64,000 bases of DNA, from contig JAHQWH010000155.1 in the NCBI GenBank assembly GCA_029856105.1, forward strand, positions 1-64,000. The letters run 5' to 3'. Made by a program: the position numbers and the translations under genes. Source of the stretch: Promethearchaeia archaeon. GTDB lineage: Archaea > Asgardarchaeota > Lokiarchaeia > Sigyniarchaeales > SOKP01. Each line of letters opens with the position of its first letter. Positions within the stretch are counted from its first letter, which is position 1. The notes under the pieces were generated by a model. The model searched no databases. It saw only the letters and a program-made list of their open reading frames with translations, and was not told the origin of the DNA. Below are positions 43,789-50,222 of the stretch, piece by piece.

Positions 43789-45048
43789 CTATTTTTCATA
43801 AATATGAACCACGCATGTACCACCAGATCCACCTAAATTATGTGTCATAGCTCTTTCAACATCAAATTTTACTTGTCTGTTTCTCTCAGCAATGCCTCGC
43901 ATCTGCTTAAAAGTTTCTACAGCATGAGCCGCCCCAGTAGCGCCTACTGGATGCCCTTTTGACTTAAGTCCCCCAGAAGTGTTAATTGGGAGCCTTCCAT
44001 CTAGTTTAGTTTCTCCATTTTTTATAGCTTCAACAGCTTTACCTTTCTCGTAAAATCCTAAATCCTCCATCGCGAGTATCTCTGCAATCGTGAAACAATC
44101 GTGTACCTCACAGATTTGAATATCTTTTGGTTTCAGACCGGACATTTCGTAGGCTTGCCTTGCTGCTTCTCTTGTAGCTATAAAACTCGTTAGACTATCT
44201 CTATCATGTAATGATAAGGCAGCACTTCCTTGACCAGTACCAGTTATCCAAATTGGAGTATCAGTAAATTTTTTTGCTACATCGCCAGCCACTAGAAATA
44301 GACATGCCGCACCATCTGTAATCAATGAACAATCAAATAATCTTAAAGGAGATGCTATGAATGGGTTCGAAGAACTTTTAAGAAAATCAAATTCATCTTT
44401 CCAATCGGGAACATCTCTACCTTGTTCTTTATATCTAACTATTTTACTAGCCATCATTTCTTTTATCGATTGTTGCATTTGAGCAAAGGGGTTCTCCTTC
44501 CCATTTTCATGGTTTTTTATTCCAACTCTCATCAAATCTTCCGCCGTAGTCCCATATTTATGGAAATGTGCCGAAGCAATTGCCGCATAAAGCCCTGGAA
44601 ATGTTGCCCCCGCGGGATATTCGAAAATAGAATCGGAAGCTGTGGCTAAAGTGTCGGTGACTAAAGTTGTTGATACTTCCGTCATACATTCTACCCCGCC
44701 TACTGCAATTACATCATGTACGCCTGAAGCAATAGCAATAACCGCTTGTCTTAAGGCAATGCCGCTACTAGCGCACGCACCTTCAAATCTAGGTGCAGGT
44801 TTTGGAGTTAGTCCGACCAAATTTGCCATCTGAGGACCTAAATGTCCTTGGTGGTTAAATAAATCTGAGGAATAATTACCGATATAGCACGCGTCAATAT
44901 CTTTCGGTTCAATACCATTATCTACTGTTTTGACAGCATTTAACCACGCTTCAACCCACATGTCGGGATTTCTTTGAAGTGGGAAATTTCTACCAAATTT
45001 ACACATCCCAGCACCAACAAGTGCGACTTTCCTTGCTAATTTTCCCAT
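43789..45048 (-). CDS. Thiolase (SCP-x/archaeal type)
   Basis: EGACASS, DGAA, EVHDCF, SGGLKSKGHPVGATG, HNLGG. Confidence 0.93.
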   Translation of the reverse strand: MGKLARKVALVGAGMCKFGRNFPLQRNPDMWVEAWLNAVKTVDNGIEPKDIDACYIGNYSSDLFNHQGHLGPQMANLVGLTPKPAPRFEGACASSGIALRQAVIAIASGVHDVIAVGGVECMTEVSTTLVTDTLATASDSIFEYPAGATFPGLYAAIASAHFHKYGTTAEDLMRVGIKNHENGKENPFAQMQQSIKEMMASKIVRYKEQGRDVPDWKDEFDFLKSSSNPFIASPLRLFDCSLITDGAACLFLVAGDVAKKFTDTPIWITGTGQGSAALSLHDRDSLTSFIATREAARQAYEMSGLKPKDIQICEVHDCFTIAEILAMEDLGFYEKGKAVEAIKNGETKLDGRLPINTSGGLKSKGHPVGATGAAHAVETFKQMRGIAERNRQVKFDVERAMTHNLGGSGGTCVVHIYEK

Positions 45049-48290: not shown

Positions 48291-49451
48291 TTATATCCTA
48301 TACCAATACGATTGAATTCTAATATTATCATTATCAATAATATCTATGTTAGCAGTCCATTTGTAAATTTTTAACCATAATTTTCCTGGAAATGGATGCC
48401 ATCCTTTAATTGGTTGAATGTTAAGTGAAATTATATCACCTACACGATTTATATAATATTCTCCTGCAAAAATTCCCTTTTTATCATCAATACAACAAGA
48501 GAATTTACCTTTAATTTTCATATTACTTTTTAGGGTAATTAAATTAGGAATTGCGGGAGAGAATTCAAAAGAAATCGTATGACCTACTTCATTCTTTCCA
48601 GAAATCTTTTCTATCTCGTAAAAACCTTCATTGTTAAAAATTTCATAAGTTAAATTTTCGTTAATTACATTTAAATTAGACGAATTTATAAGCATTGGAT
48701 TTAAGTTTCCACTAAAAGAATTATTCCAATTTCCAATAATCGGTTCTAAGGAGTAGTGTGCTGAATAAAAATTCATACCGTTCATTCGAACTGGCATTTC
48801 AACTGGTTTCCTTAAAAATCCATGAATTTTTATAATAATTTCAGTATCTTTTTTGATTACCATACCAAACTCGTTGAGATATACTATTGGAAAATACTGT
48901 GGCTTTTTACTAGCGGTAACGATTGGAGTTAACATCGCAGTTAATTCTCTTCCAGGCGTATTTTCCTTAATTTTTAATTCGATGTCTTTTTCTAACTTGT
49001 CTTTCAAAAATAGATAAGCATCTAAACCCATATCATCTGTTTGAAATCTAAAATCGATTACTTCAAGTTGGTTAAACGAAACATTTGTCCCCATGTCCTC
49101 GAATAATTTCTTCCTAAACTCGATAATTGCTTCATTTGTATAATAGATGTCCATCAAGTCATCTTTTCTATACATGATTACCATAGGCAATTTTTCACCA
49201 GCTATACGAAAAATCTGGAGTTCAATTGCATAGTAAATAGGGTCTTCTTCGAAATTAATTAGCATTAAACGATCTATATGATCAGTAGTTATGTTAAATG
49301 GTGAATAAATCATATTTTTAGGCGTAGATTCGTAAATTTTTAGCGAATTATTTTTTTTACCAAGGTATTTGTGGTGATCTATAACGATATCTTTTATCTT
49401 CACATTATTCCGCTTTAAAAATGTTGACAATAATCTCTTTATAACGCCCAT
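48291..49451 (-). CDS. Hypothetical protein
   Basis: 386-aa open frame co-oriented with cobO; no recognisable motif. Confidence 0.6.
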   Translation of the reverse strand: MGVIKRLLSTFLKRNNVKIKDIVIDHHKYLGKKNNSLKIYESTPKNMIYSPFNITTDHIDRLMLINFEEDPIYYAIELQIFRIAGEKLPMVIMYRKDDLMDIYYTNEAIIEFRKKLFEDMGTNVSFNQLEVIDFRFQTDDMGLDAYLFLKDKLEKDIELKIKENTPGRELTAMLTPIVTASKKPQYFPIVYLNEFGMVIKKDTEIIIKIHGFLRKPVEMPVRMNGMNFYSAHYSLEPIIGNWNNSFSGNLNPMLINSSNLNVINENLTYEIFNNEGFYEIEKISGKNEVGHTISFEFSPAIPNLITLKSNMKIKGKFSCCIDDKKGIFAGEYYINRVGDIISLNIQPIKGWHPFPGKLWLKIYKWTANIDIIDNDNIRIQSYWYRI

Positions 49452-49468: not shown

Positions 49469-50037
49469 TTAATATTCAATACCAAGACGAGCTTTAATCC
49501 CTTTTGAAGAGTAGTAATGTTTAATCATTCTCATTTCAGTGAGTAAATCTGCACGCTCTTTAATTTTAGGATGCATCTTAGGTCCACCAGTTATAATTAA
49601 TTCAACTTTTTCAGGTTTATTATCAATCAATTTTAATACTTCGTCAAGTTTTACGATTCCATATTCGACAGCAACACCAATTTCGTCAAGAATAACGACA
49701 TCGTATTCGTCGCCCATAATCACCTTCTCTGCAAACTTCACGCCTTTTTTTCCTTCTTCAAAGTCAATTTCTCCAGGAGTTGCGATTAAATCTGGCGTTC
49801 CAAACTGTTTCAATTCGAAATTTGGAACCCCTTTTACAGCCGTAACTTCCCCATATTGAGGGTATCCTTTCATAAATTGAATCATATATACTTTATATCC
49901 ATGACCCGTAGCCCGAAAGCCTTGTCCTAAAGCCGCAGTGGTCTTGCCTATAGGCATTACTATTTTTTTATAGCAATTTTACCCCGACCAAAATAAACTT
50001 GTACAAGGCCAACATTTAATCTTTTTCTTTCGACCAT
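49469..50037 (-). CDS. cobO: Cob(I)alamin adenosyltransferase (CobO/BtuR); join of exons 50037-49979 and 49949-49469, 179 aa
   Basis: Exon 1 MVERKRLNVGLVQVYFGRG; spliced GRGKGKTTAALG; IQFMKG, VILDEI, LIITG, ADLLTEM...KH, GIEY. Confidence 0.88.
49950..49978 (-). other. Candidate 29-nt bulge-helix-bulge mRNA intron
   Basis: Insert AAUUGCUAUAAAAAAAUAGUAAUGCCUAU; GGGU/GCCU 4-bp helix, AAA and AUA bulges, 8-bp inner stem; removal restores frame and P-loop. Confidence 0.8.
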
Positions 50038-50222
50038 AATTATCAAGTTCCTTTAATTAATCTATAAAAATAAACTTGCACAAATCCTTAGTTTAATCTT
50101 TTTTAAATAATAAACAACCTTTTATTTTTTACATTAGAATATATTTTATACCATTAAGATATTCTTTAACTAGTTGTTTTGATAATTTTCAATATTAAGA
50201 TTAATGTAAAAAAATTAAGGGA

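What the first reader, a model, noticed from the sequence alone, without database searches (positions are those of the whole stretch)
49940..49990. Candidate bulge-helix-bulge intron inside a protein-coding gene (cobO P-loop)
Seen in sequence: on the minus strand, ATG 50037 gives MVERKRLNVGLVQVYFGRGK, then IAIKK and two stops (TAG TAA). The rest of CobO (GKTTAALG...) resumes in another frame, so a 29-nt insert splits the CobO signature G-x-G-K-G-K-T-T. The RNA reads UGGUC-G-GGGU-AAA-AUUGCUAU-A6-AUAGUAAU-GCCU-AUA-GGCAA-GACCA. That gives an 8-bp inner stem (one G-U), a 4-bp central helix GGGU/GCCU, and 3-nt AAA and AUA segments on opposite strands. The outer exon-exon pairing (UGGUC/GACCA) is imperfect, so this is a relaxed BHB/BHL form. 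Established knowledge: the archaeal tRNA splicing endonuclease EndA cuts after the second base of each 3-nt bulge, RtcB ligates, and crenarchaeal cbf5 mRNA introns are removed this way. Applying that rule removes 49978-49950 and gives GGT AA|A GGC AAG ACC = GKGKT, a clean 179-aa protein. Inference: a genuine non-spliceosomal mRNA intron in a metabolic gene of a probable Asgard archaeon. I know of no description for this gene, but could not search.
Basis: partly seen in the sequence, partly recalled or inferred. Interest (0 to 1): 0.95.

Follow-up and report, generated by a model that had tools for sequence, protein, structure and literature searches.

The report
tRNA-type mini-intron splitting Asgard cobO
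The only vitamin-B12 adenosyltransferase gene (cobO) found in this Loki-type Asgard archaeon is broken in its ATP-binding loop by a 29-base hairpin shaped like an archaeal tRNA intron, and comparison with about 60 related genes indicates it is cut out of the mRNA at the predicted bases, which the papers I could search report inside a coding sequence only for cbf5.

Summary
Observation confirmed; interpretation supported by comparison, not yet by RNA. On the minus strand, 29 nt (49978-49950) split the cobO P-loop codons GRGK|GKTT. Inserts of 29, 30 or 33 nt sit at exactly this site in 19 fetched species of three genera. All examined carry stops or shift the frame. 47 other orthologues examined lack the insert precisely. 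The hairpin stem shows compensatory changes in 5 of 8 pairs. The 4-bp central helix, part exon and part intron, stays paired in 98% of cells. Two relatives have AAT before the insert, and only the tRNA-endonuclease cut rule restores the invariant Lys. Both exons are under strong purifying selection (dN/dS 0.06). The genome has an alpha/beta EndA pair with the Lys/Arg loop that permits relaxed motifs, plus RtcB. In a sister genus a LAGLIDADG gene sits beside intron-bearing cobO only, and one relative carries this window's exon 1 plus intron on a foreign exon 2, so the intron looks mobile. This scan has already reported this cobO intron in other genomes and similar introns in other genes of this genome.

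The parts
49979..50037 (-). Exon 1 of cobO. It runs from ATG 50037 to the second A of the Lys codon (59 nt) and encodes MVERKRLNVGLVQVYFGRG plus two bases of K.
   Evidence: The peptide RKRLxxGLVQVYFGRGK is conserved in intron-bearing and intron-less orthologues. The 20-aa N-terminus is identical in the joined 179-aa protein P0134, where residues 10-20 fill Pfam profile positions 3-13.
49981..49984 (-). Exon strand (GGGU) of the 4-bp central helix H.
   Evidence: It pairs with 49955-49952. The helix is paired in 98.3% of cells over 15 distinct sequences, and three pairs switch between G-C and G-U or between U-G and C-G.
49978..49980 (-). 5' three-base bulge AAA. The predicted cut lies between 49979 and 49978.
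   Evidence: The bulge is AAA in 17 of 19 intron-bearing genes and AAU in 2 (L048, L050). In those two, only a cut after the second base restores Lys.
49950..49978 (-). The 29-nt intron by the BHB cut rule. It contains TAG and TAA in the exon-1 frame.
   Evidence: Inserts of 29, 30 or 33 nt sit at the same site in 19 fetched species, with precise absence in 47 other orthologues examined.
49956..49977 (-). Intron hairpin h': 8-bp stem (49977-49970 with 49963-49956) and A6 loop (49969-49964).
   Evidence: 95% of cells are paired and 5 of 8 pairs show changes on both sides. No shuffle reached the covariation score (0 of 500), and slid controls pair at 29-57%.
49952..49955 (-). Intron strand (GCCU) of the central helix H.
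   Evidence: Variants GCUU, GUCU and GCCC keep 3-4 pairs with the exon strand.
49949..49951 (-). 3' three-base segment AUA. The predicted cut lies between 49950 and 49949, so A 49949 becomes the third base of the Lys codon.
   Evidence: Across 19 sequences the middle base varies freely (U, C, A, G), but the last base is only A (17) or G (2), as expected for the third base of a Lys codon. No conserved outer helix closes this segment.
49469..49949 (-). Exon 2 of cobO. It begins with the third base of Lys and continues as GKTTAALG... to stop TAA 49471-49469.
   Evidence: PF02572 profile positions 14-172, E 1.7e-47. dN/dS is 0.06 among intron-bearing genes.

Best explanation
The 29 nt at 49978-49950 are an archaeal endonuclease-type (bulge-helix-bulge family) intron inside the cobO coding sequence. 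In the pre-mRNA, the exon bases GGGU pair with the intron bases GCCU to form the 4-bp central helix. The intron hairpin supplies the inner helix. The heterotetramer-type splicing endonuclease EndA cuts after the second base of AAA and after the second base of AUA. RtcB then joins the halves to give GGU-AAA-GGC, which restores the P-loop GRGKGKTT and a 179-aa adenosyltransferase. The 3' site has no conserved outer helix, so this is the relaxed HBh'/BHL form. The following are shown here: the anatomy, its conservation and covariation, the exact junction by comparison, selection on both exons, and presence of the enzymes. Cleavage and ligation themselves are inferred, since no RNA data were available. 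At the DNA level the intron probably arose once within the family. It was later lost precisely several times and moved between lineages, probably with help from a neighbouring LAGLIDADG endonuclease gene that this genome no longer has.
For: (1) Site and precision. 13 of 33 congeneric loci carry a 29- or 30-nt insert at exactly this site, and 20 have GGN-AAR|GGN-AAR with nothing between. Six more intron-bearing loci occur in two other genera, at 29, 30 and 33 nt. 20 intron-less loci of the sister genus and 7 metagenome contigs are also precise.
(2) The insert is not coding. Its length ignores the frame, and the 30-nt versions in this genus carry TAG or TAA in frame (read).
(3) RNA structure. 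The inner stem is 95% paired with compensatory changes in 5 of 8 pairs. The central helix is 98.3% paired. 0 of 500 shuffles reach the covariation score, and slid registers pair at 29-57% (the 13-sequence set is).
(4) Cut positions. L048 and L050 read GGT-AAT before the insert and AGA at its end. Only cuts after the second base of each bulge give AAA (Lys), while cuts after the third base would give Asn in the invariant GxGKGKT. The last base of the 3' segment is A or G in 19 of 19 sequences, while the middle base is free.
(5) The gene is alive. Median dN/dS is 0.060 in 53 intron-bearing pairs against 0.075 in intron-less pairs, and the exon-1 peptide is conserved. cobO is single-copy, and no PduO-type adenosyltransferase was found in this 92%-complete genome.
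(6) Machinery. There are two EndA paralogues. One has the catalytic Tyr, His and Lys, and its best solved match is the catalytic subunit of the Aeropyrum pernix heterotetramer (3p1z_B, E 3e-34). It aligns SKPR with EKPR, the K44/R46 of the Crenarchaea-specific loop that confers cleavage of relaxed BHL motifs (PMC3241643). The other paralogue has no His at the aligned catalytic position (read by eye). RtcB is present. PMC5829648 reports the (alpha-beta)2 type with this loop for Asgard.
(7) Context. 14 of the 20 tRNA genes that aragorn finds carry introns. A second protein gene (C10:60290-60319) carries a textbook hBHBh' 30-nt insert, z -3.5.
Against: There is no RNA evidence. The 3' cut site lacks a conserved flanking helix. 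In this window the BHB-like fold is 4.3 kcal/mol above the minimum-energy fold, and in L011 and L012 about 8 kcal/mol above it. The central helix has two G-U pairs. Covariation counts come from related sequences and overstate the number of independent events.
Confidence: 0.85

Rival explanations
1. The insert is bypassed or circumvented at translation. Either the ribosome hops over it, as in phage T4 gene 60 or the yeast mitochondrial byp elements, or translation restarts at ATG 49957 to make a 162-aa CobO without exon 1.
For: The insert is short, has a hairpin and has stops soon after its start, as bypass elements do. An NTG (ATG, GTG or TTG) lies at the same place near the 3' end of the insert in the congeneric intron-bearing genes (read), and gene callers use it, which explains the 162-aa database entries.
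Against: There are no matching take-off and landing codons that keep the P-loop. AAA has no Lys codon to land on, because the 3' segment is AUA, ACA, AGA and so on. A GGU to GGC hop would delete two P-loop residues. The covarying 4-bp helix between exon and intron and the 3-base spacing are not features of bypass. A restart product would lack beta-strand 1 and half the P-loop, yet the exon-1 peptide stays conserved in all intron-bearing genes. NTG is expected by chance, since three of the four possible bases give a start codon.
Confidence: 0.05
2. cobO is a pseudogene or a decaying gene in the insert-bearing lineages, and the insert is a neutral hairpin insertion.
For: The reading frame is broken, and annotation pipelines call only a truncated protein.
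Against: 19 insert-bearing genes in three genera have no other stop or frameshift. dN/dS is 0.06, equal to that of intron-less genes, and exon 1 is conserved. cobO is the only corrinoid adenosyltransferase found in the genome. The exon half of the helix and the purine at the junction are constrained.
Confidence: 0.03
3. The insert is removed from RNA, but by something other than EndA and RtcB, or it is excised at the DNA level in a subpopulation.
For: No enzyme assay links EndA to this substrate. The 3' site is not a canonical bulge. Joined forms exist in public assemblies (P0134 and P0005, 95-96% identical to intron-bearing relatives), and these could be DNA.
Against: 29 nt is far too small for a group I or group II intron, and no Rfam family matches. 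The geometry is that of the EndA substrate: a 4-bp helix, 3-base bulges and cuts after the second base. The organism's EndA alpha subunit has the loop residues that allow relaxed motifs (PMC3241643). The metagenome contigs with joined forms that I could fetch are from other species, at most 92.9% identical.
Confidence: 0.05
4. The insert is an assembly or sequencing artefact.
For: None beyond the fact that this is a metagenome-assembled genome (238 contigs).
Against: The same-site insert occurs in 19 independent assemblies with lineage-specific variants.
Confidence: 0.01

Closest known systems
BHB intron in the cbf5 (pseudouridine synthase) pre-mRNA of Desulfurococcales and Sulfolobales (Watanabe 2002; Yoshinari 2006; Yokobori 2009, PMC2738675)
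   Same: It is a short endonuclease-type intron inside a protein-coding sequence. It often has a relaxed cleavage motif and interrupts a codon block essential for activity, so it must be removed. The host has a hetero-oligomeric EndA. The distribution is patchy and is explained by one gain and secondary precise losses.
   Different: The gene differs (cobO P-loop) and so does the phylum (Asgard/Promethearchaeota rather than Crenarchaeota). Splicing is shown by RT-PCR for cbf5, but here it is only inferred. Here there are signs of lateral movement and an adjacent LAGLIDADG gene in relatives.
Non-canonical tRNA introns with relaxed HBh'/BHL motifs, cut by (alpha-beta)2 or epsilon2 EndA (Marck and Grosjean 2003 as cited in PMC5829648; PMC3241643)
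   Same: The central 4-bp helix, the well-formed bulge next to the intron helix, the second site in a loop-like context, the cut positions and the dependence on the Lys/Arg loop of the alpha subunit are all the same.
   Different: The exon part of the motif is made of codons, not of tRNA structure, so the motif is constrained by synonymous-site choice (NGG-GGY).
Archaeal rRNA introns carrying LAGLIDADG homing endonuclease genes (for example I-DmoI; from my own knowledge), and 'collaborative homing' of an endonuclease-less intron with a free-standing endonuclease gene in cyanophage psbA (Zeng, Bonocora and Shub 2009; from my own knowledge, not read here)
   Same: In three relatives a LAGLIDADG gene lies next to the intron-bearing allele and in none of 20 intron-less alleles of that genus. 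One relative carries a mosaic exon 1 plus intron tract.
   Different: The endonuclease gene lies outside the 30-nt intron. No cleavage specificity is known. This window's genome has no such gene next to cobO.
Translational bypass elements (T4 gene 60; byps of Magnusiomyces mitochondria; from my own knowledge)
   Same: These are short, hairpin-containing, stop-containing inserts inside coding sequence.
   Different: Here there is no matching take-off and landing codon pair, and the exon-intron helix with covariation fits EndA, not the ribosome.

Membership tests
Archaeal endonuclease-type (BHB/BHL) intron | A 4-bp central helix formed across the exon-intron borders | tested here: met
   GGGU/GCCU at 49984-49981 with 49955-49952. 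It is paired in 98.3% of cells over 15 distinct sequences, with one-sided G-C to G-U switches in three pairs.
Archaeal endonuclease-type (BHB/BHL) intron | Two 3-nt bulges on opposite strands, each flanked by helices (strict hBHBh') | tested here: not met
   The 5' bulge AAA is flanked by H and the intron hairpin. The 3' segment AUA has no conserved outer helix, with the two candidate helices at 85% and 82% pairing and no covariation. The motif therefore fails the strict form and fits the relaxed HBh'/BHL form described in PMC5829648.
Archaeal endonuclease-type (BHB/BHL) intron | Relaxed form: H plus one proper bulge plus h' | tested here: met
   The inner stem has 8 bp, is 95% paired and shows compensatory change in 5 of 8 pairs.
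Archaeal endonuclease-type (BHB/BHL) intron | Cuts after the second base of each bulge give the functional product | tested here: met
   This rule gives GRGKGKTT in 19 of 19 sequences. In L048 and L050 (AAT...AGA), only this rule gives Lys.
Archaeal endonuclease-type (BHB/BHL) intron | The host encodes EndA able to cut relaxed motifs, plus the RtcB ligase | tested here: met
   There are two EndA paralogues. The alpha-like one has KPR aligned to K44/R46 of A. pernix EndA (PMC3241643). RtcB matches at E 9e-168.
Archaeal endonuclease-type (BHB/BHL) intron | The intron is actually excised and the exons ligated in RNA | not testable with these tools
Programmed translational bypass | Matching take-off and landing codons that preserve the protein | tested here: not met
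   Read. AAA has no Lys landing codon, and a GGU to GGC hop would delete two P-loop residues.
Homing-endonuclease-mobilised intron | An endonuclease gene is associated with the intron-bearing allele | tested here: inconclusive
   There is none next to cobO in this window or in 13 intron-bearing loci of this genus. A LAGLIDADG_3 gene is directly upstream in L048, L049 and L050 of the sister genus and in 0 of 20 intron-less loci there.
CobA/CobO/BtuR ATP:corrinoid adenosyltransferase (PF02572) | A full-length profile match including the P-loop | tested here: met
   Exon 2 alone covers profile positions 14-172. The joined homologue P0134, which has the same 20-aa N-terminus, covers positions 3-172 at 186.5 bits.

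The most novel reading that the evidence does not exclude
The cobO mini-intron is a mobile genetic element that spreads at the DNA level together with a free-standing LAGLIDADG endonuclease gene. In this reading the enzyme would cut the conserved, uninterrupted P-loop coding site. Repair would copy the endonuclease gene, exon 1 and the intron into the recipient, and the intron would protect its carrier by breaking the target. Such a route would explain how tRNA-type introns colonise protein genes in the closest archaeal relatives of eukaryotes. This window would then hold a descendant that has lost the endonuclease gene.
Probability: 0.35. Interest if true: 0.88.

Novelty: new member of a known kind. 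Interest (0 to 1): 0.75.

Why it matters
In the papers I could search, splicing of a protein-coding sequence by the archaeal tRNA-splicing machinery is documented only for cbf5 of some Crenarchaeota. A second gene in Asgard archaea, one of several such genes in the same genome, would show that protein genes in the lineage closest to eukaryotes can be split and depend on RNA splicing for expression. It also has a practical consequence. Gene callers annotate these genes as N-terminally truncated proteins (the 162-aa database entries), so metabolic reconstructions and protein family alignments for Asgard genomes are systematically wrong at such sites. The patchy distribution, the precise losses, the mosaic allele and the neighbouring LAGLIDADG gene in relatives make the origin and spread of such introns directly testable.

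Tried and rejected

(2) An exact-pattern scan of JGI metagenome contigs for the spliced junction found 7 contigs of 2-23 kb. All are genomic DNA of intron-less relatives, at most 92.9% identical in exon 2 to any intron-bearing gene. They are not transcripts.

(3) The joined 179-aa and 184-aa proteins P0134 and P0005, from Logan assemblies, are 152/159 and 153/159 identical to the exon 2 of intron-bearing relatives. Whether they come from spliced RNA or from intron-less strains could not be resolved.

(4) I ran my own genome-wide scan for strict BHB motifs whose removal joins open frames. It gave 5,866 motif hits. 182 passed the ORF filter, against 186-201 with the cut shifted by 1-2 nt, and stricter stems also showed no excess. 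This ORF-only test therefore cannot count introns in a 32% G+C genome, and I make no census claim from it. One hit in this window (about 44642-44690, plus strand) is antisense to an intact thiolase gene and is a false positive.

(6) Rfam gave no credible family; the only hit is a plant microRNA model far below its threshold.

(7) Repeat or mobile-copy test: the intron sequence is unique in the genome.

(8) Upstream neighbours of cobO in this genus are ordinary genes (Fe-S protein, DUF169, hydrolase, flavin oxidoreductase and others). None is an endonuclease cassette.

Full report
WHAT IS THERE. On the minus strand, an ORF starting at ATG 50037 encodes MVERKRLNVGLVQVYFGRGK and then runs into IAIKK, TAG and TAA. 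The rest of an ATP:corrinoid adenosyltransferase (GKTTAALG...) continues in another frame to the stop at 49469-49471. That second part matches Pfam PF02572 from profile position 14 to the end (E 1.7e-47). A joined homologue with the identical 20-residue N-terminus (P0134) matches from position 3. The 29 nt between GGT-AA and A-GGC therefore split the signature GRGK|GKTT. Removing 49978-49950 gives a 179-codon frame. Taken alone the fold is unremarkable (z -1.55), and the minimum-energy structure does not use the central helix. The BHB-like fold costs 4.3 kcal/mol more here and is the optimum in only two relatives. The argument has to be comparative.

COMPARISON WITHIN THE GENUS. The genome is a 3.66-Mb, 32% G+C, 92%-complete assembly. 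Public sources name identical or near-identical proteins as coming from Promethearchaeota / Lokiarchaeota. Of 42 congeneric genomes, 35 have cobO. In the 33 loci fetched, 13 carry an insert at exactly this site. Seven have 29 nt and six have 30 nt. Twenty read GGN-AAR directly followed by GGN-AAR. The 30-nt versions would be in frame, but each has TAG or TAA in frame. Length therefore ignores the frame and the insert cannot be translated. On the 13 sequences, the proposed pairs are standard in 97.5% of cells against 28-61% in slid registers.

COMPARISON ACROSS THE FAMILY. An order-wide search (151 genomes) pointed to six more broken genes in two other genera. Fetching them showed same-site inserts of 29, 30 and 33 nt. 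On 15 distinct sequences, the intron hairpin is paired in 95% of cells and has compensatory changes in 5 of its 8 pairs. The central helix, whose 5' strand is exon (Arg-Gly codons NGG-GGY) and whose 3' strand is intron, is paired in 98.3% of cells with G-C to G-U switches. No shuffle of 500 reaches the covariation score. These sequences are related, so the counts overstate independent events, but the slid-register control keeps relatedness and still falls to 29-57% pairing.

THE SPLICE SITES. The tRNA-endonuclease rule places a cut after the second base of each 3-base bulge. It predicts that the third base of the 5' bulge is intron and that the last base of the 3' segment supplies the third base of the Lys codon. 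Both predictions hold. The last base of the 3' segment is A in 17 sequences and G in 2, never a pyrimidine, while its neighbour is U, C, A or G. L048 and L050 read GGT-AAT before the insert and AGA at its end. Under the rule this gives AA+A, which is Lys, whereas any model that keeps the first three bases would put Asn into the invariant GxGKGKT. I regard this as the strongest single piece of evidence for the exact junction.

THE GENE IS FUNCTIONAL. Median dN/dS of exon 2 is 0.060 in 53 intron-bearing pairs and 0.075 in 135 intron-less pairs. The exon-1 peptide RKRLxxGLVQVYFGRGK is conserved in all of them. cobO is single-copy, and no PduO-type adenosyltransferase was found in this 92%-complete genome. 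A pseudogene reading is untenable, and so is a restart at Met 49957, which would discard a conserved beta-strand and half the P-loop.

THE MACHINERY. The genome encodes two EndA paralogues of about 200 aa. One keeps the catalytic Tyr, His and Lys, and its best solved relative is the catalytic subunit of the Aeropyrum pernix heterotetramer (3p1z_B, E 3e-34). In that alignment, SKPR of the Asgard protein lies on EKPR, the K44/R46 of the Crenarchaea-specific loop. PMC3241643 shows that this loop, and Lys44 in particular, is what allows cleavage of relaxed bulge-helix-loop motifs. PMC5829648 reports the (alpha-beta)2 type with this loop for Asgard archaea. The second paralogue has no His at the corresponding place (read by eye), as expected of a structural beta subunit. 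RtcB is present. This matters because the 3' site is not a clean bulge. The motif is the relaxed HBh'/BHL form, the same situation described for the cbf5 intron (PMC2738675).

CONTEXT IN THIS GENOME. aragorn finds only 20 tRNA genes, and 14 of them have introns. This agrees with a recent preprint on heavily interrupted Asgard tRNA genes (10.64898/2026.10.13.758758). My own ORF-based scan for further mRNA introns had no power, since hits equalled shifted-cut controls. One hit that I followed is convincing. At C10:60290-60319 a 30-nt insert with a 7-bp outer helix, GGUG/CAUC, bulges AAA and UUU and a 10-bp hairpin (z -3.5) separates a 283-codon frame from a 116-codon frame. The two frames carry DUF2229 and a weak HGD-D match (E 0.0035, below Pfam's cut-off) respectively. 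Earlier reports of this scan describe this cobO intron in other genomes and similar introns in other genes of this genome. I used them as leads only.

HISTORY AND MOBILITY. On an exon-2 tree the intron is confined to a crown clade of 29 of 40 rows and needs 7 changes. The simplest history is one gain and about six precise losses. Examples are L040 nested in the 29-nt clade, L010 beside L011 and L012, and L009 beside L006. Following a lead from earlier notes, I looked for an endonuclease gene. None lies next to cobO in this window or in any locus of this genus. In the sister genus, however, a 351-440-aa LAGLIDADG_3 protein gene is divergently oriented directly upstream of intron-bearing cobO in L048, L049 and L050, and is found in none of 20 intron-less loci of that genus. 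In addition, L047 of the sister genus carries a 33-nt intron whose stem, central-helix strand and 3' segment are identical to this window's. Its last 51 exon-1 bases are 49/51 identical to the window, whereas its exon 2 is only 71% identical position by position (339 of 477) or 75% after gapped alignment. By contrast, its exon 2 is 86% identical to that of its congener L049, whose intron is only 64% identical. This mosaic indicates that exon 1 plus intron moved between genera. Endonuclease-assisted homing is a reasonable inference, but no cleavage specificity is known and the association rests on two to three related loci.

WHAT IS KNOWN. Full-text searches found no report of endonuclease-type introns in Asgard protein genes. 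The papers found treat cbf5 as the case of pre-mRNA splicing in Archaea (PMC2738675; PMC5829648, references 22-24). The library does not include most subscription journals, so this absence is not proof. I file the feature as a new member of a known kind. It has the same mechanism class as cbf5, in a new gene and a new phylum, and it comes with an unusually rich comparative record.

LIMITS. The joined proteins P0134 and P0005 in public assemblies may be spliced transcripts or intron-less strains. Organism names for PDB entries 3p1z and 3ajv, and the psbA, T4 gene 60 and I-DmoI comparisons, rest on my own knowledge or on the cited paper's text, not on a test here.

Noticed in passing
G000 contig C10:60290-60319 (locus L044:991-1020; duplicated on contig C26): This is a second protein-gene mini-intron. 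It is a 30-nt insert with a textbook hBHBh' motif: a 7-bp outer helix CAUUGGC/GCCAAUG, GGUG/CAUC, bulges AAA and UUU, and a 10-bp hairpin (z -3.5). It lies between a 283-codon frame with DUF2229 and a 116-codon frame with a weak HGD-D match (E 0.0035, below Pfam's cut-off).
   Followed up: partly
L048:1525-2844 (-), L050:1568-2842 (-), L049:3916-4968 (+): LAGLIDADG_3-domain genes (351-440 aa, 78-94% identical to each other) lie divergently and directly upstream of intron-bearing cobO in three genomes of the sister genus. They are absent from 20 intron-less loci of that genus and from all loci of this genus.
   Followed up: partly
L047:3446-3517 (-) compared with window 49930-50030: This is a mosaic allele. 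A sister-genus cobO has a 33-nt intron with this window's stem and 3' end, and an exon-1 tail 49/51 identical to the window, on an exon 2 that is only 71-75% identical. This points to lateral transfer or gene conversion of exon 1 plus intron.
   Followed up: partly
G000 contig C10:55532-58657 (L071:33-3158, +): A 1041-aa open frame has as its only Pfam hits a LAGLIDADG_3/LAGLIDADG_1 domain at residues 685-765, 27-28% identical to the cobO-linked endonucleases of relatives. It ends about 0.8 kb upstream of the other intron-bearing gene. Whether it is an intein host or a large free-standing endonuclease was not resolved.
   Followed up: partly
L004, L007, L008, L025, L026, L028, L034-L039 (cobO 5' ends): Many orthologues, with or without the intron, have no ATG, GTG or TTG upstream of the conserved RKRL. 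The frame opens TAA-TGY-ATC-ATT-AGA just after a GAGGT motif, which suggests initiation at ATC or ATT.
   Followed up: no
window 50063-50070 (minus strand): A TATA-like TTTTTATA lies about 30 nt upstream of ATG 50037, so the cobO mRNA may be leaderless or nearly so. This is an inference from the sequence only.
   Followed up: no
window 48291-49451 (-): A 386-aa ORF starts 17 nt after the cobO stop. It matches no Pfam family, yet a 383-396-aa frame follows cobO in most loci of the genus. It is a conserved unknown partner gene.
   Followed up: no
L023:107-1253 (-): The Fe-S protein gene that neighbours cobO (about 380 aa elsewhere) is split into 155-aa and 236-aa frames in this relative. This could be a frameshift or another insert; I did not examine it.
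   Followed up: no
whole genome G000: aragorn detects only 20 tRNA genes in a 92%-complete genome, and 14 of them have introns. Many tRNA genes are probably too interrupted to be recognised.
   Followed up: no
window 44642-44690 (+): A BHB-like motif with a 13-bp stem lies antisense to an intact 419-aa thiolase gene. It is a chance match from my scan, not an intron.
   Followed up: yes
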